Shown here: piece by piece, positions 5,951-64,000 of the stretch
How positions within the stretch are numbered: the first letter of the stretch is position 1
Layout: each line of letters opens with the position of its first letter
Source of the DNA: Marsupella aquatica
Lineage: Eukaryota > Plantae > Marchantiophyta
DNA: 64,000 nucleotides
Reading direction: 5' to 3'
NCBI GenBank assembly: GCA_973895155.1
Contig: OZ316898.1
Coordinates: 8,543,079 to 8,607,078 of the forward strand
Notes under the pieces: model-generated
The model's database searches: none
What the model saw: only the letters and a program-made list of their open reading frames with translations
Told to the model about the DNA's origin: nothing
Translations under genes and position numbers: made by a program

Positions 5951-6249
5951 GGCTCATGCCTTTGTTGAGTTTGTAAGCTGAAGAAGTGATTTTTGGCCAG
6001 ATCGGGTGTTAAAGTGGTAGATGATTATGGTGAACATGCACAAGTTGCTATTTGCAAAACTAGATTCTATTCCACCTGGGGTTAGCTTACTAAGTATCTA
6101 CTTAGCTCTAAAATAGTCCTTTACCACTAGTACTAAGTAACTTTATTGTTGCGAAATGAACACTACGTGCTTAGGAGTTCACTTTTCGGGGATATATTGC
6201 CCTATATCTTGACTAGAGAACCTGGAGCTGCGGGGCTGTCCTCCATTTG

Positions 6250-9200: not shown

Positions 9201-9305
9201 GCAGCTTCCAGATTGCGGGGCTTTCTGGAAATGATTGACAGACTTAACAAGCGATCTTAGAGCAGCGATGGCCGGTGCCGGTGCGTAGTTTTACAGTTCT
9301 AACAT
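6250..9305. repeat. Cluster of diverged ~0.7 kb repeat copies in direct and inverted orientation
   Basis: Direct copies at ~6355-7040, ~7070-7600, ~7600-7725 (partial), ~7910-8150 and ~8840-9305. Inverted copy at ~8270-8830. ORFs 6488 and 7184 are near-identical translations. Confidence 0.85.
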
Positions 9306-14600: not shown

Positions 14601-14839
14601 GCTGACTGGTGCATCTTGTCAAGATCTTGCTCCATTGTACTCCTCGTTTGGCAGCTCTCTCTTCCGGCGCATGCATTGGTCGACGCAGTAGTACCGGATG
14701 GTTGAGCTGCGCCGTCCAGCAGGTCCGTGCGCCCCATATTGCGACTAGTCGCATTGCAGGATGGGAAGGACAGGCCCAGCAACAGAGTGGTAAGCAACAG
14801 ACCCTCGAAAAGTACCGAGAGACGACTGCGAGTCGCCAT
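11646..14839 (-). CDS. Secreted low-complexity Met/Ser/Arg/Asp-rich protein with eight Cys-loop motifs, function unknown
   Basis: 905-codon open frame with a hydrophobic signal peptide (LSVLFEGLLLTTLLLGLSFPSCNA). Probable donor GCAG|GTACTT at 12154/12153 and acceptor ctaatctatgtttggtttacag at 11678 give a last exon 11677-11646 (..AENLPIHRGN*). If unspliced, the stop is at 12122. Confidence 0.8.
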
Positions 14840-25100: not shown

Positions 25101-26599
25101 TTGGGTTTGGTCACCTTAGCGTTACACTAACCCAGTAAGAGCACTTCAACCAGTGCAGGCCAAAAGCCCTGCCATCTGGGAGTTTAGCAAGCAGGTGAAG
25201 TGTCCATGCATCTGGGTTTGTTACAGGTCCAATAAGCTTACTCACCCGTCCCGCCTTTTGCACTCATCAAAAACTGTGGGCAAGCCATGGGTGCTTTGAC
25301 TACACTGGCCAGTGCAGACATTACATAGAATGTAAGTGGGGCAATTGCTGCTGGGGGGCATTGCTATTTTCTATCTGCCTTGGCTGGCTGTGTCCATCGT
25401 TCTTGTGGAACCCAAACTGCGCATGCAGACCTTGGGAGGGAAAAATCCTGGGCCACAGCATTAGGGCATCTCAACCCTATAGGTTTTTGGGCTCTGGTCA
25501 CCCAGATGCCTGGGGTCGCTTCCCAAAAATGAACACCGGGACCCAAAACCAGGTGCTCCAAAAACGGGGGTGCCTCGAACCTAAATTAAGTCAGTCCATG
25601 ACAGACATAGTGTAAGTCCGGATCATTAAAAAACCCAGTAAGAAATTTGCCGTAAACAACTCGGTGGGCCGACCACCGATTCCAGCGACCTGCTTCACAA
25701 ACGTACCGGGTGTCCATCAGGAATGAAACAGTATCTTTGAAATGCCCTATTGGGGTGCAAGGACCAGGGAACAGTGCAGGTTAAAAAGCCGGGTACTCAC
25801 TCCCAGCCAGCCCAGGCAGGAGGCAGGTGGGAGGGCTCTAACAGGTGGATATGCTCTGAGGTCCTACCCGGGTGCCTTGAACAGAGGTGGCACCATTATT
25901 ACCAACTCCGTTCCTATCCACTACTGTACCGTATGTACTACTGCAGTTGCCCTGAAATCCTGAATTCTCTCGAGTCCTTTTAGTTGACGGGGTTTTGGGC
26001 TTTTTGGACTTGGCTTTTTTACTCTCTAATCAGCTGAAGGAGAAGAAAGAGCAGCCGGGCAATCACTCACTCGTGCTTTCTTTCATTCATGAGAAGCCCG
26101 AGGTAGCCCTGCCAAAGTGCCACTTCTCTCACTGTAGAAGAAGACTCGTCAGCTACATCAAAACGGTCGAAACGAGTTGGGTCGTTTTGGATCCTTTCCT
26201 GTAAGCCTGCCATTCCCTTTCCCGAGTACTCTGTGAAGACTCTCACCTCGTCTCCCACTCCTCCCATCCCGAACCGTTTGTTGCACCTTGATTTGGCTGT
26301 GGACTTCAGGTTGCCTGGTGGGTCGTCGTGATCATCATCATCTTTTTCTGCTCCTTCATCATTCACGGCCAGCTTTTTCTTCGTTTTCTTGCAATTGTGC
26401 TTCTGCCCTCTCCAGAACTCACTTTGTGGAGACGAGCGTTTCCTGGGTTCAATTGTATGAATTCCAGTTTTGTAATCAGCTCTGCGATTTGTCATCTATA
26501 GAACTCTAGTCCTCGTCTTTTCTGGGTCGATCGGACGGTCAATCGGTCCAGTCACTGGTTGGTTTATTGGGAGTAAGCAGAGGTCCTAGGAGAAGCAAC

Positions 26600-29500
26600 A
26601 TGGAAGTGTGTGCGAGCTCGTTGTCCGGATCACTACAATTACCAGCTTCTGCAAGGTTTTTGCGCAATCGCGCAGCAGAATTGGGATGGCGACAGCGGAG
26701 CCAGGCTTTGGGATGGCCGAGGAAAGGAAATTCGTCGAGAGGACGTAGAGGCACGGCTGCTAGATGCGAGGGCAACGGCGCAGGGGTGGCTGAAGGGCCC
26801 GATTTGAGCGTGACGATCAATGGCCTGCATCTCCCGAATCCATTTGTCATTGGGTCGGGACCTCCGGGCACGAACTACACCGTGATGAAACGTGCATTTG
26901 ATGAAGGTTGGGGCGGTGTCATTGCAAAAACTGTGAGCTATCACACCTGCATTTCGTATGTGTGATTTGGTCATTCTTAGTCTTACACCTTAGCGTAATC
27001 CCCTGTCGTTGACATGTGGTAGATGAGTTCCCTTCCTGGCAACTTCAGATCTCAGTGCATGTTATAGGTCTAGAGAGTTCAGGGGGTTCGGTTTACATCA
27101 TCCTGGTGGGTCTGAGAGAATGCCTGGTGCCATGCCCCTTTCATTAGAATTGCCTATAGGTCTAGTGTCCGAAGCTATTAGCCCCCCTGTGTGGTACACC
27201 TCGTGGTGGTGGATCTAAACAGAATGCACCTTGAGTCCCTCCTCTTACTGAAATCAAAACCGTCTCGCAAAATTGAAGTACAAAAATCGATGCAATGGGA
27301 CAGGAGGTCAAATACCCAAACGGTTGCTGCCAGAGAGAGACTTGACCTTAAATGACTCTCATTTTCTACTATCATTTCTGATATGTTGTCATATTGAAGC
27401 AACGGGAGTGTCAAGTTTTTGAAAAGGATGCGAGAGGCTTAACGATTTGAAATACTTGTCCTGTTCTTCTCATCCATTTACTCATTGTTTATCTTAAGAG
27501 AAAGAGAATATGTATGAAACAAATGAATAACTTTACCGTGCTGGAATGCAGGTCTCCCTTGATTCCTCAAAGGTAGTGAATGTGACACCTCGCTACGCCA
27601 AATTGCGAGGCCCCAACACCAGGGAGGTCATAGGATGGGAGAATATCGAACTTATCAGTGATCGGCCATTTGAGACGATGCTGGAGGAGATGCACAAGCT
27701 GAAGCAAGAGTATCCTGATCGCATTCTTATCGCTTCTATTATGGAGGAATACAACAAGGCAGCGTGGGAAGAGGTTATTGAGCGAGTGGAAGAGGCTGGC
27801 GTGGTAAGTGATAGAACCTTGTCCCCGCCTAGATTCCAATGAGCTTAGTGAGAACTACGCAATTGATATTGTTTCGAAGACTGTAAGTGAAGCTTTGGGT
27901 AGATGAGCTTAGTGTGGTTGCCCTCCATTCCTCTCGAAGGTACTCTAGAGAGCTGAGAAGTTAAAAAAAGACTCAAGTTCTGAGAAGTCCTAGAAGAGGC
28001 ACTTTGGTTGTCGTTTTCGTCTAGAGACCCACTATCCTAACGCGTGGGATAGGCTGTGTTTTCTGTGTGCTTGTGGTTCATATTGCTCAATGTGAAGCTT
28101 ATTAACATAGGCGTCTAGTTTTCCTCTCGCCTAGTACGTAATTAAAGTGAAAAAGAGAGTTACGAAGAACGTGTCACTTAAGGAAAGTTGTCTGGTTAGG
28201 ATGCCTTGGAGATCAACTTTTCATGTCCTCATGGGATGCCAGAACGTAAAATGGGAATGGCAATGGGTCAAGATTGCGAGCTTCTGGATGAAGTTTGTGG
28301 TTGGATCAACAAGAAAGCTTCTGTACCTGTTTGGGCGAAGATGACTCCCAACATCACAGACATAACTCAGGTATACGTCCATCAGGTTCCTTGCCTCATT
28401 TTAGAACGCGTCGGTTATTGAAATACTGTTGCCAGAGCGTTGCCACAAACTATTTACATTGAGATGTTGGTTTAGCATCTTGGATATTGTAAGAATTTAT
28501 CTCTGCACTGTGCGAGCTTGGGTTTTTGTGGTCATCCAAGATTATGACAGTGTGCTTCATTTGAAATCAGTTGTTGCGGATATGAATCAAGTTTTGAGTA
28601 TCTTGTTCTCTTGTCATGTCTTCACCAGCCAGCCAGGACAGCCTTGCTTGGGGGCTGCGAAGGTGTGGCGGCAATCAACACAATAACTAGTGTGATGGGC
28701 ATCAATCTTCGAACCTTACGCCCAGAACCCTGCGTCGAAGGGTAAGCCGTTTCGAACTTAAAACAAAACTTGGAAAAAATAGGGGAACCTGACTCATCTC
28801 CAGAGTTCAAGAGATTGAATGCAACACTTTTGTATATGATTCCGGCCTTTCCGTTTTGTAAGTGAGCTTTGAGAAGGGTGACTTGAGGGTAAACGCCAAG
28901 CAGAAGGCTGTGGTGACCCATATATGGTTGTCTGGCAGATACTCTACTCCTGGTGGCTATTCGTCGAAAGCTGTAAGGCCAATAGCGCTTGCAAAAGTAA
29001 TGTCTATTGCGCAGATGATACGGAAGGAATTTCCAAACTCAGATATCTCCCTTTCAGGGATTGGAGGTGTAGAAACAGGAAATGATGCAGCGGAGTTCAT
29101 TCTCCTGGGGGCAAACTCTGTGCAGGTGATTCCTTTCCCTTCTGGCATTTAAGGAAGTTAGGACAGTCTGGGTCATCGGCTGTGATTGGCTTGTCGATGA
29201 ACCCCAGGCTCAAGCCCCACAATCCTGTTTACAATAACACGGTTTCTTGCAAATGTAGCAAGTAAGCTAGTGAGCTCAATCTGCGGACGGGGAAACCTTT
29301 TCATGACTAGTCTTTTGCGGGAGAAACTAATTTTTATCAAAATGGTGATGGTCTGCAGGTATGCACGGGAGTGATGATGCATGGCTATGGCCTCGTGAAG
29401 AAGTTATGTACAGAGCTTCAAGACTTCATGAAAGTACACCAATTCACATCCATTGAGGACTTTCGAGGGTAACGACCTGGCAATTCGTAGACATTTAAGA

Positions 29501-30100
29501 ATTTGACAAACTACTGTGGCTACAACTCTGAGCTAGTGTTGTTGGTTGAATGTCATGAAATCAGGTTTGGGGATCCGTTCACCCAGCAGAGTGGACTGAT
29601 ATTGCACTTTGAAGTAACTCTGAACAAACAGTTGTTGTCTGGTCGATAAATCCCATTTTGTTAGTGCCTCACTGAGTCTCAAATGTGACTTGAACTTGGG
29701 CAGGCTTGATGCATAAAACGAAGAACAAATAGGTCTAGAGTAGAGACAGAATAACGAACCTTAAACCTGAAAGAGGCCTAGTTAATGTAGCTTCCTTCTC
29801 GCTATTTGTAGAATATCTCTCTCAAGATTGGGTATCGGTCATTACGTAGTGCCCGATTGTCTCAGTCAGGCTTGGAGGAAGATTGATTTGTTAAGATTAT
29901 TCAGTTCTCTTCATTCGAAAGTAACCTGTTCTCTGACGTCGTATATATGCAGTGCCTCCCTGGAATACTTCACAACACATTCAGAGCTGGTGCGAATGCA
30001 GCGAGAAGCAAGGTCTATCCGAAGAGGGCTTGCTTCAGACAAGGACTGGACAGGGGAAGGCTTTGTGAATCAGACAGAGACTATGGTATCAAACAGCTAA
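26600..30100 (+). CDS. PYD1: Dihydropyrimidine dehydrogenase (NADP+), plastid-targeted, 7 exons
   Basis: Exons 26600-26932, 27552-27803, 28200-28370, 28629-28741, 28939-29125, 29359-29468, 29953-30100. Motifs NPFVIGSGPPGTN, GWENIELISDRP, EINFSCPHG, AKMTPN, GGYSSKAVRPIAL, SGIGGVE. Ser/Arg-rich transit peptide. Confidence 0.96.
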
Positions 30101-31973: not shown

Positions 31974-34813
31974 CTACTCATCAATTATACCTTCCATGTA
32001 AATTTTGAGAGTTTTCAAAACATTCTTAGAAATTATCAAACCTCTATCCATAATATTTTGTTCTTTAGCACCTGACTTAAACCCATACATTGCAGAATTT
32101 GCAAACTTCCAACTTTGAGTAACATTGTCAAACCCAGGATCCAGCTCCCAAGTCTTAGTGGTTTGAAAGCAACGTTCATATCGAACATCGTTCATTTGAA
32201 TCAATCGTGGTACAGGATGAATGCTTTCACACTCCCAAACCTCAGCCATCAACCCCAAGAGGGTAGCAACCTCTTTGTATCTGACCTGTTTGGATACTTG
32301 AGAAAATAATGCATCCACGTCTTCATGGGTGTGGCCAACCATGAGGAATGACATTTGCACAGTTTCAAACACCCCCTGCTAACAAGCTCAGTGCAAAATG
32401 CCATCACATATTGATTTTTGTTATCTTTCCCTGAATTGTCCATCTGCAACGTTAGGTGCCTTGGTAAGGGCTTGAAAGAGCCCCTAGTAGTCTCAGGATC
32501 ATCCTTAGAACCAACATCCACTATGCTTGACTTTTTAGTCTCCTGACCATCTTCAATGCCTTGAAATCGAACAATTGAAACATTTTTGGGTTCCAAGTAA
32601 CCGGCCAGAAATGCTTCAAAGTCTAGAAGGGACTGAAATATTGGCCTAGTTGCATTCCAATTCAATCCCTCAAGAAGGTCTCCAGTTTTGTCTCCTATGT
32701 AATCTTCCAAATCTCGGAGGCATTTGGCCAAAGATGTCACGGTAAAGTCTGCATCTCCAGGCCAAAGTCCAGTCAAACTGAAATGTGCATACACTCCAGG
32801 ATCTCTTCCATGGGTTAACATCCCAGTAAGAGCAATAGGCAAAGGCTGACCACTACCAGAAAGGGATTTTGGAGTGGGGACCAACCTGGGGATCCAAGTC
32901 TTGGCTTGATCCATCTTATCGTGAATAATGCAAAGATAGCTTTGAGGATCCTTCTTTGCAAGAACCCTATGAGCATAGTAAACATATATTCTTGACATTT
33001 GTTCATGAAGATGTCGCGCTCTTTTCTCTTCAATCTCTGCACGCTCTTTTTTTCTCTTCTCCCACATCAATTGATCTTTGAACTCAGTGCAAAATGTGCA
33101 CTTGGCAAATGCACTTCCCTTGTGAAAGTCAAAATTATCAAATGAGTTTTTCCAGATGTTGTACATAGTAACTTCAGTAACCTTAGCAAACCCATCTAAT
33201 TCCATCTTGGTAAACACCTCTTGGAAAATCTCCTTCTTAGTAAAACAAGATGGGAGCCGATATTCAATAGTGTCAGTGCCGTTGGACCCACCATAGGGAA
33301 GATGTGGCATTGGTTCCCCATTTTGGATTAAAATGGACTCCAACAAGGCGCGAGCGTGCAAAGTGCTTGATCGTGTCTTCCGTTGTCCCTGATTTCCATG
33401 GAAACCAATTGTGCAACCAGCTTCGTATTGATTTTTGTAGTCATAGTACTTTGTTGTACTGAACCCATGCATTTTAATAAATGCATCTTTACAAACCACA
33501 CGTCCCTTTAGAACAAAAAATCCCTTTCTCTTGACTTGCTCCTCTCTACACCCAAAGAGACTAAAGATGTGACTTGTTTTGTTGTCACTTGACATTCCAT
33601 GGTATTCCCTCCTCATTGCCTCTAAGTCCTCCCTGGGCATGTTCAAGCAACACTTCAGCTTGCAACAACCTTCTCTTTGGATGGAATCAATGGACTCCTC
33701 GTTAATTTTCAAAAGTGCCCTCGACTCCAAATGCCTTTTCTTCCTCTCCTCAATATCAACTTTTGTCCTCCTAATGAAATTGTATGGTCTTTTTGTAGGT
33801 TTACCATCACCATCCGAATCCGGATCGCCCTTAGTTCGACCCAACTCCATCCACTTCTCTGAAACTTCCTCAAGGATATCCCCAAGAAACCTTTGAGACG
33901 AAATCAATAGAAGGGATTTGATTTCCCACCTCACCAAGCCAGGGGTACCAACACGGATATTTGGAAATAATCCGGGTTCATTGATATTCACAACAGCAAC
34001 ACCAACATGATCTGCACCAAGAAGTTCATCGTCAACGGCACCTGTTTCAAATGGGACCGTGATAACACCTGTTGCAACCTTTCGACAACGAGAAGCGTCA
34101 TACAAATCAACCTCCTCCGCCATCCAGTTGGAACGTAGTGTAAAATTTTTTAATGGAAGATCATTGAAAATATTTGAACTACCAAACACGCCAAAATTTT
34201 GTAGAGTGCCCTTTCTAGAAACATGCGCAACATCCCAGATAACCCAGGTATGCAAGGCCTCTTCTATTGTATCAGCTCCAGGGTGCGAGTATGGCAATTT
34301 TTGATTTCCCTTAACAATATCAGATATTCTTATACTGATGCGACCAACCCCGAGTGTTTCAGTATGACAAATATCCATCGGATTTGTCTTGAAAACGACT
34401 CCATTTGCAACCAACTGATCAAAAATGAACATCTGAACTTCATCTCCTTCCTTGAACACGTCCTCTTCAACCCTTGCATCAATTTTGGATTTATCATTTC
34501 TAGCATCTCCAGCCAAAGAGAAATCATCGACATTGATTCTTCGGCGCTGAGTTGATGACCTCAAGTATGCCAATGCACAATCCCAAATCACGCAGGAGTC
34601 AATTGCCTCAGCCAATGTAGAAAATTTGGGCGAAGGAAATGGAAGTTGACACGATCCATCAAAACACTTTTCGATCAATACCCCAATTCGATTGTCCCCT
34701 AGACAAATGTTCTGTATAGTATCCTGGGGGTCAACCTTTTGAACTATCCCAATTGCCGTTTCAAATCCATCGATCACCAATGACACTTCATCTCCTCGTG
34801 TAAAATTGATCAT
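31974..34813 (-). pseudogene. DDE transposase with three N-terminal Tnp1/En-Spm-like domains; frameshifted near 32375
   Basis: Motifs CCKLKC, VCKDAFIKMHG, KCTFC..FK, IIHDKMDQAKT, LQMDNSGKDNKN, then SFLMVGHTHEDVDALFS in the next frame. The shift lies in a G-run. The C-terminus looks truncated. Confidence 0.85.
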
Positions 34814-34940
34814 GATAGCGGACTATCTGTATTCAAATAAAGTTAGAAATTGTTAAGTTCCCCATGTTACAATCATGTTTCAAAATCTGGACTCTCCTCC
34901 AAAAAATATTGTAAAATCACTCAAAACCCTAAATACATTC

Positions 34941-50811: not shown

Positions 50812-53800
50812 ATGGGGGATTCTACTGTCACTGGGCTACGGGCGCTTGCAATTGATGGAGGACGTGCTGCTGCAGCTGAGGGTGCAGCAGGGCCGGCTCT
50901 CCAGACTAGGCAGGAGCGAGAGATTAGGGTTCCCATTCCGGGCAAGAGGAACGTGCTTGTGACCAGTGCATTGCCTTACGTGAACAACGTGCCGCATTTG
51001 GGAAATATTATCGGATGTAAGTGCCTTACCAGCGGGTCAAGTTTTGCTTCATGGGTCGGATCGTTTGTTATGAATTGCATAGTGAAAGGCTGGCGGTTTC
51101 CTCTGGACTTATTCGAGCATGTTTTGGCATCCATTGCAGGTGTACTTTCAGCAGATGTGTACGCCAGATATTGTAGAAGACGGGGCTACAATGTGATCTA
51201 CATGTGCGGAACCGATGAATATGGTACAGCTACAGAGACAAAGGCTGTTGAAGAAGGAATAACCCCGAAAGAAATTTGCGACAAGTAAGTTGTGGCTATC
51301 TCGAAGTTCTTCAAGTTATAGATGGAGCTTTCTGACCTCATTAAAATTGATTTCGAGAGTAGCTGTTTAAGCAAACAGCAGCTCTTGGACTGTTCTACAT
51401 GTCTCTATCGCTGGATTTTACCTGAAACCCCACAGAACTATGGTCCACTTGTGGTGCCTGAAATGATTCAACAGGCAAGGATGGTCATTGACCACTTCAT
51501 TAGTGACCTCGATTTTCTCTTGCAGGTATCACGCAGTTCATAAGGACATTTATGAGTGGTTCGATATTGACTTTGACAAATTTGGTCGAACATCTACACC
51601 TCAACAAACAGAGATTTGCCAGGCTATATTTCAAAGACTTCTTGAAAAGAACCGCCTGCTGGAAGATGTTATGGAACAGGTGATGACTTCTCCATAATAA
51701 GGCCTTGTGAAAAAGTTCAGAAGGATTTGTCGAACATGGAGACGACAGCCGATACTCGAATATGAGGATGTTTACGGTTGACGCTTACTAGTCGATATCA
51801 TCAACCGTTATGTGATAGGATACGTAGGACCTTAGCATTTGTTTGTTATTAATCAGTACTGGTGGTCTGTGACAGCCCTACTGTGACACCTGCAAACGCT
51901 TCCTGGCTGATAGATTTGTGGAAGGTACTTGTCCGAATGTTGGCTGTGGTTATGATGGCGCAAGAGGAGATCAGTGTGACAATTGTGGCAAGCTCCTCAA
52001 TGCTGCTGATCTCATCAACCCTAGATGCAAGGTAATCTCACCCTCAATATTCTCGTCTTCAAGTACCATTTTTGTCCAGCCTTGTGCATATAAATTAATG
52101 CATTACAGCCAAACATACAAATGCTGTTTATCAACTTGAACGGTCCAAGTTCTGACCATACCCATGTCTATGTACAGATTTGCGGTAATCCTCCACGAAT
52201 TCGTGAAACAGAGCATTTATTTCTAGATCTTCCTCAACTAAAGGATAAGCTGGAGGAGTACGTGAGCAACACATCAGTTGTTGGAGGCTGGAGTCAGAAC
52301 TCAGTACAGACAACACATGCATGGATCCGGGACGGCTTGAAGCCTCGCTGTATCACCAGAGATCTGAAGTGGGGTGTCCCTGTCCCTCTCGAGAAATACA
52401 AAGAGAAGGTAAACTTTCTTAATGTTAATTTTAAATGAATCTTCTAAAGTCGAACATTATGCGTTAGGTTTAGATGCTAACTTTGTTGCGCCAATTCTGA
52501 TATTCTAGCTGCTCCTTGTTGCAGGTTTTTTATGTATGGTTTGACGCACCTATTGGGTACATATCCATCACTGCAAATTACACTTCAGAATGGGATAAGT
52601 GGTGGAAATCACCCAAGGATGTTGAACTTGTTCAGTTCATGGGAAAAGACAATGTGCCGTTTCACACGGTATGATTACCTTCGATAACTCACCTTCTACT
52701 TAACAGTTCGGCAAGTCGCGGAATTGTAACTTCATGTGTTGATATTACGTCGAATTACCAACCTTCCATGTCACAGAAATGAACGTTTCGCATTAGAATG
52801 AGTAATACTGAAAATATTTAGGGACATTTTAATTGTCTTGTGATCTTACACACTGCTAATTGCCGACAAACATGTGTTGCACAGGTCATTTTTCCTTGCA
52901 CTCTTATTGGCACAGATGATCCATGGACACTGATGAGGACAATCAGTGTCACCGAGTATTTGAACTATGAGTCAGGTTGGTTTGATTTCTTGTACACTGT
53001 CTGAGACTTGGTCAATTTGTTTGAAGCGTCCATAATATACAGTGCAGTACTCTATTTCCTTACCAGGAGACTTGAGCCATCTTAAGGGTCCAGTATAGTC
53101 TAGTCTGACAACGATTTTTGCATGTGACTCACCTCCGTTCAGAATGTCCCTTGATTTGGAGGACATTTCTCTAGATTTTGACCGTTGATTAACTCAGTGT
53201 TTGATATCATGCAGGCAAGTTTTCCAAAAGTAGAGGTGTGGGTGTATTTGGGAATGATGTAAAGTCCACCAATATCCCTGTTGAAGTGTGGAGATATTAC
53301 CTTTTGACCAATCGACCGGAGGTATGTATTTTATCACGTCAAGCTCTTGAATTTAATTACACCTCCCCACTAAGAACCAAATCGACCTTGTTGATGTATT
53401 TTCTTGTCTTACGCCAGATGTTGTCTCAATAGAACTTTCTTGGGAGCAATAGCTGACTTGATGTACTTACTGTTACACGCTGAAGCCGTTCAACTTGGAT
53501 ATAATGAATCCGATGTAGAGTGAGCCCTCTCTTTAGTGCCAACATCCATTCTATGATCTCTCCTCTGCAAGCTGTGTCACTGTCCCGTTGCTCACCGTTA
53601 CTCCAGTTCCTTCAGCATCCCATACGGAGAAAATGCGCTGAACTCGGTGCTGACAGCCTCAACAGTCAGTTGGTTCTCAGCCGAGAGAGCCAACTGACTG
53701 CACACCCGACACATCCTCCACCCTCTAGAGCATTTATTTGTTTCTCTGACACACCCGGCTTAGCTAAGCGCAACCCTAGATCTTGAAAACAATGACTTGG

Positions 53801-56800
53801 CTTTATTGTGTCACCTACGCTCATCAGAGAGTTATCTTTGAGCTTGCACGAGTCCGAAATACCTGAGTATGACCTTAGTTACCTGAAGTTACTTAGCAAA
53901 ACAGAAATATTTAGGTGTCTGTCATCGTGTGTATAGTATTTGAACTTGAAGCCTTATATCGAAGATTGCTTGGGTATTTTCTTTGCAGGTATCTGATACG
54001 TTGTTCACATGGGCGGACTTGCAAGCCAAGCAAAATAATGAATTGCTGAAAAATCTTGGCAACTTTGTCCATCGCACTCTCTCTTTCCTCGTAAAACCTA
54101 TAGGTAATACACGAGGAAGTTTTTGTGTCCGTTGCTCACGTTTGGCTTGCGTATGAAGGAGAGTTAAAAGTTTAGGAGAACCTAAAGAGCTTGGGGTGCA
54201 CACTATTTGCAGGTGAAGGATACGGTGGAGTAATTCCAGAAATATCAGGAGCTGAGTCACATGAGTTAACAGCATCATTTGGGTCTAAAGTAGGTGATCT
54301 GGTGAAAGAATATGTAGAAGCAATGGAGAAGGTACGACACACCATTGTACACTCAAGCCGTGAGCTCTTCTGTGATGTCCGGGCAGCTTATGCTAAGCTT
54401 TGATAAGTCAGAAGTTGTTGAGCACCTCGTGTCAGTATCGCTATCTCATTGCCGTGTTACTCTTGGGCAGGTAAAGTTGAAACAGGGACTCAGGACAGCA
54501 ATGAACATCTCAAGTTTAGGCAATCTATATCTTCAGGTATCTTGATCTAACCCCGAAGTTCACCCCCACAATTTGGGAGAAAGAAAGAAACATATATCTC
54601 TTTTTCTTCAAGTTTGAAACATCTTTAGATACAGAACCTGGCATTTATATCCGGTGATTGCATCATATAGGAAGAAGCTGGTTTAATGAGCTATATTACA
54701 AGTGTATGCTACATTTGGCGAGTACAAGTGGTCTGTAGCTTTTTAAGGGCATCCCTGACAGCAAAGCATGTAGATTTGCTGAAGGAAGACCATTTTCTGG
54801 ATCTATGTTTTCGTTCAAGGTGTTCTGATACGGGCATGGGTGAAAACAGGATAGCAAGTTCTGGAAGCTCTACAAAGAAGACCCACCTGCCTGTGGAATA
54901 GTTATCAAGACATCTGTTGGACTAGTACATCTTCTTGCCACTTTGTTGGAGCCTTTCATACCCTCATTTTCACACAAGGTAAAAATTTATATTCAGATGT
55001 GTCAGTTTCGTGTAATCGCAGGGTAAATGATTGGGACTTCGGGAATGCGTGTGACAAGTGTGATGCTCATGGTTCTCATGTTTCCTGTTGGAATACCCAT
55101 TTTGGTCCTAGCAATCAGAGAATGTTTCAGATTGCATTTCAGGAGAGTTTATCATTTGGAAGTTCTTGGAAGCATTAAAGTGCGTTTTTATTCTATATGA
55201 TGAAGGCAAATGACTTTCTTGCTCGCTTTGCAGGTGCTACAGCAACTGAATCTCCCACCGTCATCCTTAACCTTGAGTGACGAGAATGGGGATATTGAGA
55301 GGGCGTCCAAGCCTTGGAATCTGGTCCCAGCACATCACCGAATTGGTGTACCATTTCCTGTGTTTTTCGAGCTGGTGAGAAAATCAATTGATCCAATTCT
55401 TTGTTATAAAACTTGGTTCTGGCATAGCCCATTTGATTGGAGTGACTGGGGAGTACAGCAGTGCCTATCAAAGGCTGGAGTCCAATTGTGGGAAATTGTG
55501 GCTGAGATATGAGTTTCTAACCTCACATTCTTGGCTGATTCACTGGCCTGAGCTTGTTAGGCCTTGTGAGAGAAGGTAAATGAGATCCCGCAGTGCGGTA
55601 AATGGCTTTGTATTGGCAGATCTGATCACATGATTTTGCACTAGGATTTCGCCTGGTATCATATATTCTAATTCATGAGCTTCGTAATGTTTCGTTGGAC
55701 TCGTCATAACAGAAGGATGAAGAGGTGGAAACATATCGCGCGAAGTTCGCCGGTAGCCAAGCAGATCGGGCTGCTGCGGCTGCTGCATCTGGAAACACAG
55801 GTCTGAAGATACTGAACAGGAGCTTCCCCTTAATATGTCCTTGAAGGCATGTGGCAATAGTTGAACTATGAAGATGACTAGCCCAGTTGTTGTTTGAGAA
55901 CCCCAAGAGCTATGATCGATATGCAAGCTTCTTCCTAGATCGCATCCTCAATATTAGACAGTTAAACGGAGCTTGAGCAGGCAGGTGTGTAAAAGATACG
56001 CCTGAGATGCCAGAACTTTCGAAATTGCGTTCTTAAGATCAAGTACGACCGCATGAGATAAGAAACTGCTCAATTCGAGTTGTTAGTGTGATCACTGGTA
56101 TAGATTACCTGGTATTTCAATACTACGCAAATGTTGTTCGTTAAGTCAGTGTGAGTTCTGAGATGTGGTTGGCTTCTTTGTGCTTGCATGATATCTTCAA
56201 AGCCGCCACACCGTCAGTAACTCCAGGAGAAGCAAAGAAGGGTCCAAAACCTTCGAAAGGTGGGGAGACGAAAGGAAAGAAGGCCACAACAGAGGTCAAG
56301 GATGCTCCTATCGATGTTACTAGATTGGATATAAGGGTTGGAGTGATCACTAAGGTTCAAAAACATCCAGATGCTGACTCCCTGTACGTGGAGGAAATTG
56401 ATGTCGGAGAATCGGCTCCCAGAACTGTTGTCAGTGGCCTTGTGAAGTTCATCCCTATTGATGAGATGCAGGTCAGCTTCTTACAGTTCCCTACACTCTT
56501 TTAGGTATTTTTACTTGATTTTGCAGGCAGTAGCTCTTGTGCTCATGTGAAATAGTACATTGATATGTTTTTCTTGCGATGTACAGAATAAGAGCATATG
56601 TGTTTTATGCAACCTCAAACCTGCAAAAATGAGGGGAATAACGTCACAGGCTATGGTGTTAGCAGCGTCCAATGCAGATCACACCCAGGTATACGCCTGA
56701 TCCGCTGATAGAAGAATCTAGTCCCCTGATGTTGCTCACGTAGGTTTTTTGTGGTTGGCAAACTTAATCTGCAATTAAATATGTTGGCTGAACCCTCATC

Positions 56801-57147
56801 AAGAGTATTGTGGGAGAAATATCGTGCATTCAAATGTAATGTAGTATGATTAGCGGAACGAAAATGTGAGTCAAGTTTGTAATTGTTGATGGTTTCTCAT
56901 CCACTCTAATCTGCAGGTCGAGCTAGTTGTTCCTCCAAAAGGCGCTAAAGTTGGTGAACGACTCACATTCCCCGGTTATGAGGGCGAGCCAGATGAACTT
57001 CTGAATCCTAAGAAAAAAGTTTGGGAGGCTGTTCAGCTGGATCTCCACACCACGGATGATCTTGTAGCCGTCTACAAAGGAGCCCCCTTCACCACGACTG
57101 CTGGCGTTTGCAAAGTGTCTTCAATAAAGAGTGGAGCCATAAGATAG
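50812..57147 (+). CDS. MetRS: Methionyl-tRNA synthetase, cytosolic type, with C-terminal EMAP-II-like tRNA-binding domain, ~17 exons
   Basis: [21 protein letters not shown], Zn knuckles, [38 protein letters not shown]; C-terminal [31 protein letters not shown]; canonical GT-AG junctions. Confidence 0.96.
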
Positions 57148-59007
57148 TATTAACAAGACAGGTCTGTTGTGAATATTTTTCCGGATGTTCACGCAGATTT
57201 AAATTTTGGGTCTATCAACATTCATATAGGTTATTATGAGAAGTACACATTTTGCGACACGGCATAGAGTATGGCAACATGTCTATAAATTGGCTCTAGA
57301 CACATGGATAAAAATGCTGATCTATTTAATGAGAAATTGTAAATTAATTCGGCAGTTGTATCCATGGCAAACACCTCAAGCAGTCGGACTCATTCGAGTT
57401 ATCATTGTCGCAGTTTTCTCGTCTTTCCAAAACATTCCTTTCCAGAATAAAAGATGGAAATGTTTCTTATTTTACCGAGGGATAGAAAATGCCCCTCATT
57501 GACTTTGTTGTATTATCCTTTGCTTGTACAAAACTATAACTGTACGTATCTCAATAGCGCCGCAACCAGAAGAAACGTTCATTCTGATCAGAAACTTCAG
57601 GTCTGTACCTTTCCTTTGCTTTTTGGGGGTTGAGTTGCTGTATTTATTGGGGATAGCACATGTGATACAGACCTAGTTTTGAATTAGTAAAAATTCTATA
57701 ACTCCTATTATTATTACTACTCCCTAGCAAGTGTGGGCTGAAGACGGACACTACTGTGCGCTGTAGAAGGACAATATAGTTGTCTGTCTGTCCGCAAGAG
57801 TTGGCTGTAGACGGACAATAGTGTTGTCTGTCTGACCATCTGTGTGCAGGGTTATGTGGCTGAGTCTATGATGTTGGGTTAATTACATCGTTGGCTACTG
57901 ACTCCATGTTTGAGCTCATTTTTGTCGTCTGAAATCTGGTAGTCGAAGGAATTAGAGTATTCAGTCCTTCTGACAGGAAGAGTCTCCGCTTTCGCTCACG
58001 TTGCTGAGTCTGTGATGTCGGGTTTATTGTCCGGTTGGCTACTGAGTCTCTACGTCTATGACTGGCGAGATGTCACCAGTTGGTCATTTTCTCTCATCAT
58101 GATCTGAAGGAGAAAACAATCAGACTAAACTAAACCGGCAACGTATGATCCAGTTGACAAATAGGTGCTATCTGCTTGTCTAGTGATTGAGCTTGACAAC
58201 AAACGAGGCAGCGTGCTATTCATTCACTGACGATTGCGATGTCTAGGAATTGAGAAACAAGTCATGCCCAGATGACTACTCTTCCGCTTTCGACCAATTG
58301 TGTGATGGCGCAATTGGATGGAAGCGTGTAGCAGGACGTGGACGGAGAGCTTAGCGACGATGTTCACCTGTTGACTGTAGGGTAGAATTTAGAGTGGGAA
58401 GATTAGATTTGACACAGGTAGTCGTGCGTTCGATTACGTTTTGGTCCTTTCATTCTGTTGTTCTCGTGGTTGTTGGGGTCTATTGGACAGCTAGTGAACA
58501 TAGCGGAAGGATTAGAATGGCCGCGATGTTATACAGATTTTGTGCTTCCGTTTCTTTTGGCGGCCTCTACAGTTTCTGTCACAGCCCTGAGGGGGCTTAT
58601 TTTAGTTAAAGCTGGCACGGGTGTCTCCTTGTGTCAAACTACATTTCGCTTCGGCGGTAGTAGTTTCACGCCTGGGATCCCTTAGTTTTGGTAACAGCAT
58701 CTAATTCTGTGCCATGAATGCTACTCAATTATTTCAGCACAAAATTTTATGTGTGTAGGTTGTCTGCTTTGGTTTCTCAGGAGTGTCGTTTACTGGCTCG
58801 TTTGACTCGATGGCCCTTTTCTGCGCCGCACTCTATTGCAATAGAGTAGGGGTGAAACTGGCTCCTCCATCAGAATGGGTCTTTAGTTTTGCACATTGTT
58901 GCAATGAGTGAGCTTAGGTAATGGAATGTCTTCGGAAAAAGTGTGGTAGTGATTCGAATCATTGGAGCTGCTGCCTTCGTATTCTTCATTCTCCAGTCTG
59001 ATATGAT

Positions 59008-59195: not shown

Positions 59196-59554
59196 GATTA
59201 ATTCCTGGCAATATCTGTCGAAATGCCATGAGCACGATGGGTTTGAATAAATCGAAGGAGTGAGAAACATGGGAAGAAAAGTAAAGCAAAGAATTTTGTT
59301 AGGAGATGCACTAGATCCAACTGGAAAACATACAGTTCCGGGTGTTACGTGGCTGAAACCCGGACGTGAACGGTCGAGGGATGGGCAAAAATTAAACCAT
59401 TCTTTGGGCAAAGGTAGGCTAATTTGTCGTCTTCACGATAAGATAAGCTTCACGATAAGATGGACTGGTAAAGTACTGGACTGACAGTTTCCCCTTTTAA
59501 AATAAATATAAAGTGCTGTAGTGCAGTGACGTTATCCGGAATTCTTCAGTTTTT

Positions 59555-62500
59555 CGAATTGACGGGGTTTTGGGCTTTGCTTTTATTTTCTATCAGCGGA
59601 AGAAGAAGACAGCAATCACTAACTCTATGGAAATAAGCAACACTCAGAGGTGTCACCGGGGTGCGAAGCACGAGCCAGCCCAGCCAAAGTGCCAATCCTT
59701 CCACTCCTGAAGAGTTATCAGTAATTAATTAAGAGAGTTATCCTTTCTAGCCTGCCATCCCCCCTCCCAGGTGCTCTTTTCAGCCTCGCACCTCCTGTCC
59801 ATTCCTCCCATCTAGAACCGTTTGTTGCACCTTCATTTCGAACTAGCTCTGGCATTCAGGGATCCAGCTGGGTCGTCATCATCTTCTTCTTTTCCTTCTT
59901 GCAGTTGTGCTTCTCCCATCTCCATAGCTCACGGTGCTTTCACGAGCGTTTTCGGCATTGAATTGTATGAAATCGAGTTTTGTAATCAGCTCTGCGATTT
60001 GTCATCTACAGAGTCCTCGTCCTGATTCTTTCTGGGTCGATCGGTCAGTCTGTCCGATCACTGGTTGGTTTATTGGGAGTAAGAAAAGGTCATAGGAGTA
60101 GCTAACATGGAACTGTGTGCGAGCTCGTTGTCCGGATCACTTCAATTACCAGCGTCTGCAAGAATTCTTCGCAATCTCGCGTCAGGATTGGGATTGAGAC
60201 ATCGGAGCCAGGCGTTTGGATGGTCGAGGAAAGGAAGTTCTTGCAGAGGAAGAGGAGGCATGGCGGCCAGATGCGAGGGCAACGGCGCAAGGGTGGCTAA
60301 CGGGCCCGATTTGAGCGTGACCGTCAGTGGCCTACGTTTTTCGAATCCGTTCGTCATCCGGTCAGGGCCTCCGGGCACGAACTATACCGTGATGAAACGT
60401 GCATTTGATGAAGGTTGGAGCGGCGTCATTGCGAAAACTGTGAGCCATCACACCTGCATTTTGTATTAGTATTTTGTTCACTCTTGGTCTTAGACCTTAG
60501 CGCAATCCCCTGTCGTTGACATATGGTTGATGAGTTCCCTACCTGGGAGCACGCGAGAGCTTCAGATCTCACTGCGTATTATCGGTCTAGAGAGTCCAAA
60601 GGGGTTTGTTCCACATCATGGTGCTGGGTTTAGTGAGAATGTCCTGCGCCCATGCCCCTTTCAGTAAAAAAATGCCTTTTACTTGCAAATTTAAAATGGT
60701 TCCATGGTAGATGGGTTCCCTACCTGGCAACAGGCCAGAGCTTCAGAGGTCAAACGGGTGGTTCCAACCCAAGCTGATGGGTCTGGAGAAAACGCGTTGT
60801 GCCCAATTCCCCTTCCATCAAAAAATTAAGTTTTACTATCGTACGTGCGTTCCCTGCTTTGCATCAGGTCAGGAATTTCGGAACTCACTCTGTACTACAG
60901 GGTCTAGTGTCCGAAGTGGTAGTTACCACTCGTGCTGGAGGGTGTTAGACAGACCCTTGAGTCCCTCCCCTGATTGAATTAAGACCGTCTGCAAACTGGA
61001 AGTACTCTAATTGAAGCAAGAGGATAGGAAGTCAAATACTCAAAAGGGTGCTGTGAGAGAGAGGCTAGATCCGAAATTCTGTCATTTTATTCGTTCGTCT
61101 ATCAATTTGTTCTCATGTTGAAGCAACGAACGGGAGTTTCAAATATCCAAAAAGGCTGATACCATAGAGAATGTTAACCCTTTTTTCTGCTTTTCTGTTC
61201 TTCTGGCTCTGTCTGGGTGACCTAAGACGGTGGTGTTTTAGCTTGCACGAGTCCGAAGTACCTGAGTATCACTTTGTTACCTGAAGTTAGCAAACACAGA
61301 ATTATTGACGTTCATGTTGTTTAAACGACAAAGAGGTAATTGTTTTCCGTCACAAATCCGAACGAAAACCCAGACAACCGTCTCTAAAAAGCATAACAGA
61401 ATCCCAAATTGGGTTCAAAATTTCTAGGGTATGCCATTTTTTAGGAGACTTCAGTTGTCTGTCATCGTTCCATGTGTGTAATACTTGAACTTGAACCCAT
61501 ACATTGAAGATCTTTCGGGTATTTTCTTTGCAGGTATCTGATACGTTGTTCACATGGTCAGATTTGCAAGCCAAGCAAAATAATGAATTGCTGAAAAATC
61601 TTGGCAACTTTGTCCATCGCTCTCTCTCGTTCCTCATAAAACCTTTAGGTAATACACGTGGAATGTTTTATGTCCGTCGCTCGTGTTTTACTTACTTATT
61701 GGATGAGGAAGTTAAAACTTCAGGAGAACCTAAAGAGCGCGGGTTGCACATTGTTTGCAGGTGAAGGATATGATGTAGATATTGTCCCAGCACATCACCA
61801 AATTGGTGTCCCATTTCCTGTCGTTTTCGAGCTGGTAAGCAAGTAACTTGATCCAATTCTTTGTTATAACACTTGGTGAGAGCAGCTACTAGAGCTGCCG
61901 CAGTGTGGAGTGGCTTTTTATTGGCAGAACTGATCTCATGATCTTGCACGAACCGCCTGGTATCATATTTTCTAACTCATGAGCTTTGTAATGATTTACT
62001 GGACTCGTCATCACAGAAGGATGAAGAGGTGGATATTTATCCCACGAAGTTCGCCGGTAGCCAAGCAGATCGGTCTGTTGCGGCTGCTGCATCTGGAAAC
62101 CCAGGTCTGTGAAGAGATTGAAAAGGAACCTCCCTTTAATATGTCTGTAAAGGCATGTTGCAATAGTTTAACCATGGGAGATGCTTAGCCCAGTTCTTAT
62201 TTGAGAATCCCCAGAGCTAAGATGTACATAGAAGCTTCCTTGGGCGTATGCCAATATTACAAAGCTAAACTGACATTTATCACGTAGGTTTGTCAAGGAT
62301 ACGCCGGGAATACCAGAACATTTAAAGTTTCGTTCTTAAGATCTAGTACGACCGAATGAGATAAGAAACTACCCAATTCGAGTTTTCAGTATTATCACTG
62401 GTGTAAATTCTTTGATATTGTCAATATTGTGGTGTTTCTAGTCGTTGAGTCCGTGTGAGTTCTGAGATATGGTTGTCTTCTTTGGGCTTTGCATGATGGC

Positions 62501-63720
62501 TTCAAATCACATATACAGCCACACCGTCAGTAGCTCCAGGAGAAGTGAATGAGGGTTCAAAATCTTCAAAAGGTGGGGAGACGCAAGGAAAGAAGGCTAC
62601 ACCAGAGGTCAAGATTGCTCCTATCGATGTTACTAGATTGGACATAAGGGTGGGAGTGATCACTAAGGTTCAGAAACATCCAGATGCTGACTCCCTGTAT
62701 GTAGAGGAAATTGATGTGGGAGAGTCGGCCCCCAGAACTGTTGTTAGTGGGCTCGTGAAGTTCATTCCTATTGATGAGCTGCAGGTCCGCCTCTTCCAAT
62801 TCCCTACACTCCATTTTATTCAGGTCGTTTTACTTGATTTTGCAGGGAGTAGCTCTTGTGCTCGTGTAAGCTAGTCCATTGATATGTGTTTCTTGCAATG
62901 TACAGAATTTGACCGTATGCGTTTTGTGCAACCTCAAACCTGTAAAAATGAGGGGAATAGTGTCACATGCTATGGTGTTAGCAGCGTCCAATGCCGATCA
63001 CACCCAGGTATACGCCTGATCTGGTCATAATGTACTCCTCTAGACGTAGTTGTTGCTCGTTCGTAAACTCTTGTGAGATCTTCTCTCTCATGAGTAATGT
63101 GGACGTATTACATATTCTGAATTCAATTCTGGTAGTAGTGAAACAAAAATGTGAATCAAATCTGCAACTATTGATGATGTATCATGCACTCTGATCTTCA
63201 GGTCGAGCTAGTTGTTCCTCCAGAAGGAGCTCAAGTTGGTGAACGAATCACGTTCCCTGGTTATGAGGGCGAGCCAGATCAACTCCTGAATCCTAAGAAA
63301 AAGGTTTGGGAGGCTGTTCAGGCAGATCTCCACACCACAGATGATCTTGTGGCCGTCTACAAACACACCCCCTTTACCACAACTGCTGGCGTTTGCAAAG
63401 TGCCTTCAATAAAGAGTGGAGCCATAAGATAGTCTTGACAGGACAGGTCTGTTGGATATCTTTTCGGATGTTCGTGCAGATTATAATTTTGGATCTATCA
63501 TCATTGATATAGGTTTTCTGAGAAGTACACATTTAGGAACACGGCACAGAGGATTGCCCACTTGTCTATATTGGCACCGCACAAATGGACAACAATTCAG
63601 TTCTAATTCTTTAATAAGAAAGCTTATTCTGCAATTCTATTCAATCCAAACACCGCAAGCTGTGGGAGTCGCTGTGGAGTTATCATGCCTTCTGTCTTGT
63701 TTAGAAAATATTCCTTGCAA
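59555..63720 (+). repeat. Diverged, internally deleted segmental duplicate of the PYD1-MetRS block
   Basis: ~59555-61150 matches ~25982-27425 (PYD1 upstream, exon 1, intron 1); ~61240-61770 matches ~53840-54222; ~61780-63720 matches ~55322-57470. Introns are retained. Confidence 0.93.
60107..63432 (+). CDS. Candidate chimeric gene (402 aa): PYD1 exon 1 with transit peptide fused to MetRS fragments and the complete tRNA-binding domain
   Basis: Exons 60107-60439, 61534-61648, 61761-61834, 62017-62104, 62519-62784, 62906-63007 and 63202-63432 total 1209 nt; all GT-AG, phases compatible, no internal stop. Confidence 0.6.
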
Positions 63721-64000
63721 GCACAAAAGACGGAAATGTGTTTTAGTTTGGAAATGGAAGCCCTGTTGGACTTCCACATTTACCAAAATGTTTGGACAGA
63801 CTATTGCGACCGGGATGAACTGCAGCAAAACCCTCATTTCTGCTCATATAGTACAAATTACGTAATTGAGTGGAATGTGGCAAGGAAACTGGTCAAGCTT
63901 GGAAATGTGTAGGCCTCTCAATTCTTATTGACTCACTGGAAAGAACTTTTGCAAGTCATTTCATCTTCTTTGGAAAGATCTAAGAGTGAAATGTGACTAG

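What the first reader, a model, noticed from the sequence alone, without database searches (positions are those of the whole stretch)
60107..63432. New chimeric gene from a deleted duplication: plastid transit-peptide exon + MetRS tRNA-binding domain, still in frame
Seen: the duplicate lost PYD1 exons 2-7 and most of the MetRS catalytic core, yet the remainder splices into an uninterrupted 402-aa ORF. A second ~1.1-kb deletion fused two MetRS exons in frame ([25 protein letters not shown], 61761-61834). The acceptor before 62519 differs from the parent but keeps the phase. Introns carry many substitutions and indels, whereas the seven exons have no stop or frameshift. Established: free-standing EMAP-II/Trbp111/Arc1p-type OB domains are general tRNA-binding cofactors. 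Inference: a lineage-specific, possibly plastid-targeted tRNA-binding protein expressed from the duplicated PYD1 promoter.
Basis: partly seen in the sequence, partly recalled or inferred. Interest (0 to 1): 0.78.

Follow-up and report, generated by a model that had tools for sequence, protein, structure and literature searches.

The report
Liverwort fusion gene retargets tRNA-binding domain
In a leafy liverwort, copied pieces of two neighbouring genes are joined into one unbroken reading frame whose tRNA-binding part shows signs of being kept by selection, and which would likely send that domain into plastids, re-creating a protein design that plants already own; no RNA data show yet that it is expressed.

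Summary
Seven GT-AG exons (60107-63432) give a 402-aa frame: PYD1 exon 1, two remnants of cytosolic MetRS, and its whole C-terminal EMAPII-like OB domain. Both parents lie upstream, same strand. Nearest proteins are from Calypogeia fissa (91-93%). Non-coding parts have diverged 19% with 46 indels; no exon has a stop or frameshift. Constraint is focused on the OB domain: its first 56 codons carry 12 silent changes and 1 replacement, and no invariant OB residue changed on the chimera's branch, while the PYD1 and MetRS remnants drift. A second, ~5% divergent chimera copy in another study shows 6 silent: 1 replacement in OB exons, so selection likely acted after the fusion. The CCA-binding/deacylase triad (K303, R308, S312) is kept; the basic linker is weakened. 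Best reading (0.5): a translated, plastid-targeted stand-alone tRNA 3'-end-binding protein. Expression and targeting are untested. The route (fusion gene, borrowed transit peptide) is known, and plants already carry an old family of presequence + OB proteins, so this is an independent re-invention, not a new kind of system.

The parts
59535..60106 (+). Copied PYD1 upstream region and 5' leader (likely promoter of the chimera)
   Evidence: Aligns to 25957-26599 in two blocks, 72% and about 81% identity; promoter activity untested
60107..60439 (+). Exon 1 = PYD1 exon 1 copy: predicted transit peptide (about aa 1-56) plus 55-aa enzyme remnant with invariant residues lost (P79S, G85R, G105S, N74S)
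60440..61533 (+). Hybrid intron: PYD1 intron 1 homology to 61158, MetRS intron 8 homology from 61236; fusion point lies between
   Evidence: bridged with 0 differences by contigs of runs X1 (60389-61546) and X2 (61105-61546)
61534..61648 (+). Exon 2 = MetRS exon 9 copy (end of catalytic domain, PF09334 positions 362-390)
61761..61834 (+). Exon 3 = MetRS exon 10 start fused to exon 13 end across a 1093-nt deletion
62017..62104 (+). Exon 4 = MetRS exon 14 copy, drifting (R183P in a conserved stretch; 7 replacements, 1 silent)
62519..62784 (+). Exon 5: new in-phase acceptor, linker (3 Lys lost) and first part of the OB domain (aa 237-292: 12 silent, 1 replacement)
62906..63007 (+). Exon 6: OB strand with K303, M307, R308, S312, M315 kept; six neighbouring residues changed
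63202..63432 (+). Exon 7: EMAPII-type C-terminal subdomain and the native MetRS stop
   Evidence: 1euj 90-165, E 2e-21
63433..63749 (+). Copied MetRS 3' flank
   Evidence: about 80% identity to 57148-57473
26600..30100 (+). Parent 1: intact PYD1 (dihydropyrimidine dehydrogenase, PF01180 relatives)
   Evidence: 405 of 437 aa identical to C. fissa
50812..57147 (+). Parent 2: intact cytosolic methionyl-tRNA synthetase
   Evidence: 752 of 826 aa identical to C. fissa

Best explanation
The locus is a chimeric gene made from copies of the neighbouring PYD1 and MetRS genes; it is likely transcribed from the copied PYD1 promoter and translated, and its predicted transit peptide would carry a stand-alone EMAPII-like OB domain into plastids, where it would likely bind tRNA 3' (CCA) ends. 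Shown: anatomy, parentage, loss of both enzymes' catalytic parts, an open frame, constraint on the OB domain, a second divergent copy. Inferred: the middle ~180 residues are a spacer kept only in frame; the OB domain is the selected part; selection went on after the fusion. Predicted only: expression, plastid (or dual organelle) import, and a role as tRNA chaperone, synthetase helper or weak Ala/Gly/Ser-tRNA deacylase.
For: Frame open at 19% non-coding divergence. OB aa 237-292: 12 silent, 1 replacement, 11.7 replacements expected if the chimera's branch alone were neutral, P 1e-4 (best of 9 segments; about 1e-3 corrected); whole OB 19.5 against 34 expected, P 0.006. The silent differences exclude gene conversion. 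Of 76 near-invariant OB positions 1 differs from the parent, and there the chimera matches C. fissa; 6 of 77 such positions changed outside the OB (Fisher 0.028 counting 0, 0.12 counting 1). Transit peptide, PYD1 remnant, exon 4 and linker carry as many replacements as full-length neutrality predicts, which leaves little time as full-length working duplicates. Second copy in runs X3/X4: OB exon variants 6 silent: 1 replacement (P 0.001-0.003 against neutral; 0.02-0.03 if 3 unlisted differences were all replacements), exon 1 variants 1: 5. K303/R308/S312 have the spacing of Arc1p K269/R274/S278 and MCP1 K326/R331/S335. First 56 aa: 1 acidic, 9 basic, 10 Ser/Thr; Arabidopsis PYD1-GFP is plastidic (PMC2713857).
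Against: No transcript or protein evidence exists in my calls. The chimera's branch has three times the parent's amino-acid changes (34 against 11, 14 ambiguous). Exon 6, which holds the binding motif, has dN/dS 0.83 with 8 replacements, and exon 7 is not significantly below neutral on its own (P 0.15). The linker lost 3 of 8 Lys (net +4 to +1) and the OB 3 Lys, whereas Arc1p needs its basic middle domain to bind tRNA and MCP1 loses about 21-fold activity without it. The old plant family has Arg and Lys at positions 305 and 311 in 69 of 70 members; the chimera has Val at both. The second-copy counts are small, come from contigs that drop variants, and the exon 1 list is incomplete. Targeting rests on composition and on an Arabidopsis full-length fusion.
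Confidence: 0.5

Rival explanations
1. A decaying duplicate. The copied PYD1 and MetRS worked as full-length genes for a time, which explains the low dN/dS; the deletions came later, fell in phase by chance, and the frame has not yet been hit.
For: A neutral copy compared with a constrained parent gives pairwise dN/dS near 0.5 anyway; measured 0.35-0.43 overall. In-phase joints are likely by chance. If neutrality began late (0.025 changes per site) the frame survives in 3-13% of simulations with indels. Invariant residues are lost outside the OB.
Against: Non-OB parts have drifted as if neutral for the whole branch, yet carry no frameshift. Constraint differs by domain, which decay does not predict. 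Variants between the two chimera copies are still mostly silent in the OB. A lost acceptor was replaced in phase.
Confidence: 0.17
2. A translated gene whose product works outside plastids: cytosolic (from the new in-frame ATG at codon 52 or by failed import) or mitochondrial, acting beside the AIMP1-like scaffold or in tRNA traffic.
For: T52M created an in-frame ATG in a good context (GGCATGGCG). Exon 1 variants between copies are mostly replacements. The domain comes from a cytosolic enzyme. Arg/Ser-rich presequences are often ambiguous between organelles (recalled).
Against: The first ATG has A at -3 and G at +4 as in the parent; the N-terminus has stayed acid-poor and lost one Glu. There is no GST-like or coiled-coil scaffold domain.
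Confidence: 0.15
3. A translated, organelle-targeted gene whose OB fold is kept for another ligand (other RNA, single-stranded DNA or a protein); the changes around the CCA pocket and the loss of Lys mark a shift away from tRNA.
For: Six changes in aa 294-313, three to hydrophobic residues, while aa 237-292 are frozen; net charge falls.
Against: All residues named as CCA contacts are kept; Val305 is common in the family (21 of 86 motif matches among 150 representatives) and equals Arc1p V271 by spacing; His313 occurs in plant MetRS.
Confidence: 0.15
4. An assembly artefact.
For: Runs X1 and X2 may be the source of the assembly and so not independent.
Against: The copy differs from its parents by about 19% in non-coding DNA; contigs identical to it occur in 4 of 4 laid runs from 2 studies, and a second divergent copy exists.
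Confidence: 0.01

Closest known systems
Old Archaeplastida family of presequence + stand-alone EMAPII-like OB proteins (PF01588 only, about 240-290 aa; probably includes Arabidopsis At3g59980, recalled, not tested)
   Same: Acid-poor N-terminal extension (62 of 70 members with at most 2 acidic residues in aa 2-51), single C-terminal OB domain, K/R/S triad, no Lys-rich linker. Found in glaucophytes, green algae, Sphagnum, a fern and flowering plants.
   Different: Not orthologous: the chimera's OB is 91% identical to its MetRS parent and 51% on average to this family; it lacks the family's Arg305 and Lys311 and carries about 180 extra residues of enzyme remnants.
Arc1p / AIMP1 (p43, EMAPII) / T. 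brucei MCP1 / Arabidopsis AIMP1L At2g40660
   Same: Same monomeric OB plus pseudo-dimer subdomain (best PDB hits 4r3z, 1euj, 1fl0, 4r1j); CCA-contact and deacylase residues kept (PMC11286949, PMC12021450).
   Different: Those are cytosolic scaffolds with a GST-like or helical N-domain and a Lys-rich linker (PMC6683005 for the plant one). The chimera has neither scaffold domain nor a strong basic linker.
Transit-peptide capture from a duplicated nuclear gene (SOD1-rpl32 of Malpighiales)
   Same: First exon(s) of a plastid-targeted gene supply promoter side and transit peptide to an unrelated domain (PMC8018952, passages read).
   Different: There the passenger is a plastid gene moved to the nucleus and GFP import was shown; here it is a domain cut from a cytosolic enzyme, with no lost plastid gene to replace as far as tested.
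Young fusion genes from duplicated neighbours (Oryza type I-A; Drosophila tandem duplications with secondary deletions)
   Same: Both parents intact in the same region; copy fused. Oryza: 310 fusion genes, 2 of 35 expressed type I cases with parents in one region (PMC9199173). Secondary deletions affect 8-17% of duplications in Drosophila (PMC4069613).
   Different: Order parent 1 - parent 2 - chimera needs deletions or template switches, not a simple tandem breakpoint; this case is older (dS about 0.2) and shows domain-specific constraint.

Membership tests
Trbp111/EMAPII-like tRNA-binding OB domain (PF01588) | Pfam score above the curated cut-off | tested here: met
   Exon 5 piece 50.2 bits, exon 6 piece 38.1 bits, cut-off 27
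Trbp111/EMAPII-like tRNA-binding OB domain (PF01588) | EMAPII-type C-terminal subdomain | tested here: met
   Exon 7 matches EMAPII 1euj residues 90-165, E 2e-21
Trbp111/EMAPII-like tRNA-binding OB domain (PF01588) | CCA-contact residues (Arc1p K269, R274, S278, M273, M281, D226/S227) | tested here: met
   K303, R308, S312, M307, M315 by identical spacing; D261/S262 by motif. Arc1p alignment itself was not displayed.
Trbp111/EMAPII-like tRNA-binding OB domain (PF01588) | Binds tRNA | not testable with these tools
   needs a binding assay
Arc1p/AIMP1/MCP1 synthetase-complex scaffolds | N-terminal GST-like or helical scaffold domain | tested here: not met
   N-terminal part is PYD1 exon 1 plus MetRS remnants; no such Pfam hit on any exon
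Arc1p/AIMP1/MCP1 synthetase-complex scaffolds | Lys-rich linker before the OB | tested here: inconclusive
   5 Lys, net +1, against 8 Lys, net +4 in the parent
Methionyl-tRNA synthetase | HIGH and KMSKS motifs (HLGN, KFSKS in the parent) | tested here: not met
   Both present in the parent, both absent from the chimera
PYD1 dihydropyrimidine dehydrogenase | Complete PF01180 barrel with invariant GSGPP motif | tested here: not met
   Only aa 57-111 remain; G85R, P79S, G105S
Old plant presequence + OB family | Acid-poor N-terminal extension and single C-terminal OB | tested here: met
Old plant presequence + OB family | Common descent and family residues Arg305, Lys311 | tested here: not met
   51% mean identity against 91% to the MetRS parent; Val at both positions
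Functional chimeric gene | Two identifiable parents and an intact frame | tested here: met
Functional chimeric gene | Purifying selection after the fusion | tested here: met
   For the OB domain only; small counts
Functional chimeric gene | Spliced transcript | not testable with these tools
   No RNA holder listed
Plastid-targeted protein | Import into plastids | not testable with these tools
   Composition only; no targeting predictor on hand

The most novel reading that the evidence does not exclude
A tRNA-binding domain was cut out of a cytosolic synthetase and sent to plastids, where it now does the job of the old plant presequence + OB protein (possibly replacing a lost copy) as a tRNA 3'-end chaperone or Ala/Gly/Ser-tRNA proofreader: the same design built twice, with both parents still next door. 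Two or three of its changes (I296V, E353Q, L342I) and its less basic linker move toward that family.
Probability: 0.15. Interest if true: 0.72.

Novelty: new member of a known kind. Interest (0 to 1): 0.45.

Why it matters
It is a clean, dated example of domain shuffling in a bryophyte with both parents intact within 35 kb, and with selection visibly sorting the useful domain from the leftover spacer. It repeats in miniature how stand-alone EMAPII/Arc1p-type proteins and synthetase-fused ones may interconvert. If it is imported and active, it gives a natural test of what an organellar stand-alone OB protein does (tRNA chaperone or deacylase), a question open for the old plant family, for which my searches found no functional paper.

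Tried and rejected
No whole genome is held for this window, so copy number elsewhere and presence of the old presequence + OB gene could not be checked. No RNA holder listed among 5 runs; this is no evidence on expression. All 4 laid runs cover introns, so they are DNA. A break in run X4 at 62658-62661 looked like an insertion in exon 5; both sides read GATC-GATC and another loose end at 63000 reads GATC-AATC, the pattern of Hi-C ligation joints (recalled), so I rejected it; X1 and X3 cross the site unbroken. Gene conversion as the cause of OB conservation: rejected, silent sites differ at 27%. Pairwise dN/dS below 1 as proof of function: rejected as insufficient and replaced by branch and domain tests. 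A tree to date the duplication after the C. fissa split was unresolved. No protein with both PYD1 exon 1 and an OB domain among 120 listed of 368 hits, 120 listed of 2143 or the best 150 of 8884 representatives. No liverwort is named among the 120 listed of 907 hits for the old family; the list is cut, so this says nothing. ESM Atlas gave only PF01588 clusters. Three look-ups of earlier scan findings returned nothing. No structure prediction of the spliced protein was made.
Full report
Observation. A self-comparison of the window shows 59.5-63.75 kb as a mosaic copy of two upstream regions on the same strand: 25957-27430 and 53837-57473. The first is the 5' end of an intact 7-exon PYD1 gene (26600-30100), the second the 3' half of an intact 17-exon cytosolic MetRS gene (50812-57147). 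The copy splices, by predicted GT-AG sites, into 402 codons without a stop. Residues 1-111 are PYD1 exon 1; 112-153 are MetRS 412-453; 158-402 are MetRS 585-830. A 1093-nt deletion joins MetRS exons 10 and 13 in frame, and the acceptor at 62519 is new but in phase. The HIGH and KMSKS equivalents are gone.

Origin. The nearest proteins are from the leafy liverwort Calypogeia fissa, 91% (MetRS) and 93% (PYD1) identical to the parents. In both C. fissa gene sets the two accessions are two numbers apart, so the genes were likely neighbours before the copy was made; about 20 kb of repeat-rich, transposon-like DNA now lies between them. The order PYD1 - MetRS - chimera cannot come from a single tandem breakpoint; it needs duplication plus deletions or a copy with template switches. 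Sequence alone does not tell these apart. The tree does not resolve whether the duplication is younger than the split from C. fissa (support 38/11); no chimera is annotated among the listed hits.

Is it real DNA? Five public runs hold the stretch, none on record as RNA. Four were laid: contigs identical to the window bridge the first joint in X1 and X2 and the second in X1; X3 and X4, from another study, hold identical pieces and cover all 30 bins. X1 and X2 may be the assembly's source. X3 and X4 also hold a second chimera-type copy differing by about 4-6% in non-coding parts (17 differences in 304 nt, 22 in 349). It shares chimera-specific exon 1 and exon 6 states; that it shares both joints is inferred from continuous summed depth and from indels on both sides of the first joint, not from one listed contig. 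Whether it is an allele, homeolog or paralog is unknown.

Selection. Non-coding parts differ from the parents at 364 of 1943 nt with 46 indels. Neutral drift for half of that left the frame open in 0 of 4000 simulations, or 2 of 4000 at a third of the indel rate. Pairwise dN/dS is 0.35-0.43, which alone proves little, since a dead copy against a live parent gives about 0.5. Polarised with C. fissa, 34 replacements fall on the chimera, 11 on the parents, 14 are ambiguous. By segment: transit peptide, PYD1 remnant, exon 4 and linker carry about as many replacements as a fully neutral branch predicts; OB residues 237-292 carry 12 silent changes and 1 replacement (11.7 expected, P 1e-4, best of 9 segments), and that one is on the parent's side; exon 6 has dN/dS 0.83; exon 7 0.34 (P 0.15 alone); the whole OB 19.5 against 34 (P 0.006). 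Among positions at least 95% conserved in 64 MetRS or 54 PYD1 hits, 6 of 77 outside the OB changed and 1 of 76 inside, that one matching C. fissa. Between the two chimera copies, the 7 listed OB exon variants are 6 silent and 1 replacement (up to 3 more near contig ends are unlisted); the 6 listed exon 1 variants are 1 silent and 5 replacements, from a table with 295 rows hidden (Fisher 0.029). The indels listed for the OB stretch are intronic; of 26 indel rows, 12 were shown and none is in an exon. Contigs drop variants, so these counts are partial. Together: the frame and the OB fold are kept, the rest drifts, and this seems to have gone on after the fusion.

Mechanism. The OB part passes PF01588 and matches human EMAPII/AIMP1 best, including the C-terminal subdomain. 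Trbp111 and Arc1p bind the tRNA 3' CA end; Arc1p uses K269, R274, S278 and needs its basic middle domain (PMC11286949: abstract and passages). T. brucei MCP1 and Arc1p deacylate Ala-tRNA through the same three residues; without GST domain and linker about 1/21 of the rate remains (PMC12021450: abstract, passages, sections 16 and 22). The chimera keeps K303, R308, S312, M307, M315 and D261/S262, but its linker lost 3 of 8 Lys. Arabidopsis PYD1-GFP is plastidic (PMC2713857, passages); the chimera's first 56 residues keep transit-peptide-like composition and the parent's ARCE motif (reading ARCE as a cleavage site is recalled). About 570 nt of PYD1 upstream DNA were copied. I therefore favour an expressed, plastid-targeted, weak stand-alone tRNA 3'-end binder (0.5). 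Each of expression, import and binding is untested.

Comparison with what is known. It is not a MetRS, not a PYD1 and not an Arc1p/AIMP1 scaffold; the plant scaffold is At2g40660 (PMC6683005, passages). A search with a plant MetRS C-domain turned up a family of 240-290-aa proteins with an acid-poor extension and one OB domain in glaucophytes, green algae, Sphagnum, a fern and flowering plants; 9 of 120 listed hits also carry GatC. At3g59980 probably belongs here (recalled); one proteomics table lists a peptide of it starting at residue 76 (PMC5947142, passage). The chimera has the same design but a separate origin and lacks the family's Arg305 and Lys311. The route is familiar: fusion genes are frequent in Oryza (PMC9199173, abstract and section 10), secondary deletions in tandem duplicates are common in Drosophila (PMC4069613, passages), and transit peptides have been captured from duplicated genes (PMC8018952, passages). 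Ten searches of the open library listed no paper whose title or opening abstract describes a PYD1-MetRS fusion or a function for the organellar family; subscription papers and supplements were not seen.

Verdict. A real and likely functional young-to-middle-aged chimeric gene, a new member of a known kind. Interest 0.45: clean and testable, with a convergence angle, but no expression data and no new type of system.

Noticed in passing
window 62906-62968: Six amino-acid changes (K294L, S295T, I296V, A305V, T311V, Q313H) cluster around the CCA-binding motif while the preceding 56 codons are frozen; relaxed constraint or a ligand shift.
   Followed up: partly
window 60260-60262: T52M made a second in-frame ATG in a good context just before the predicted cleavage site; could give a cytosolic form.
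   Followed up: no
window 62014-62019 and 55710-55715: Tandem CAG-AAG acceptor in both chimera and parent; either choice keeps the frame (one Lys more or less).
   Followed up: no
window 60523-60566 / 60704-60747 and 61307-61449: In the hybrid intron, a 44-nt local duplication (86%) and a 143-nt block with no counterpart elsewhere in the window.
   Followed up: partly
window 30100-50800: Repeat-rich block between the parents: 857-aa frame 32249-34822 (-) with a DUF7869 hit, several long frames with no Pfam hit, and arrays of 64-, 73- and 93-nt units with palindromic cores; looks transposon-like.
   Followed up: partly
window 12122-14848 (-): 908-codon open frame rich in Met, Ser, Arg, Asp with a hydrophobic N-terminal stretch like a signal peptide and no Pfam hit.
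   Followed up: partly
proteins P0401, P0431, P0447, P0456, P0463, P0470, P0474, P0490, P0500: 9 of 120 listed hits, the named ones green algal, join the GatC family (PF02686) to the tRNA-binding OB domain, hinting at a role of the organellar OB family with the Glu-tRNA(Gln) amidotransferase.
   Followed up: no
proteins P0121, P0241: C. fissa cytosolic MetRS models carry about 100 extra N-terminal residues that look like a presequence; the same frame upstream of 50812 in the window has stops.
   Followed up: partly
runs X2, X4: Loose ends at GATC sites suggest Hi-C libraries; such joints mimic insertions with a 4-nt target duplication.
   Followed up: yes
window 6200-9300: Nested direct and inverted copies of a roughly 500-nt repeat.
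   Followed up: no
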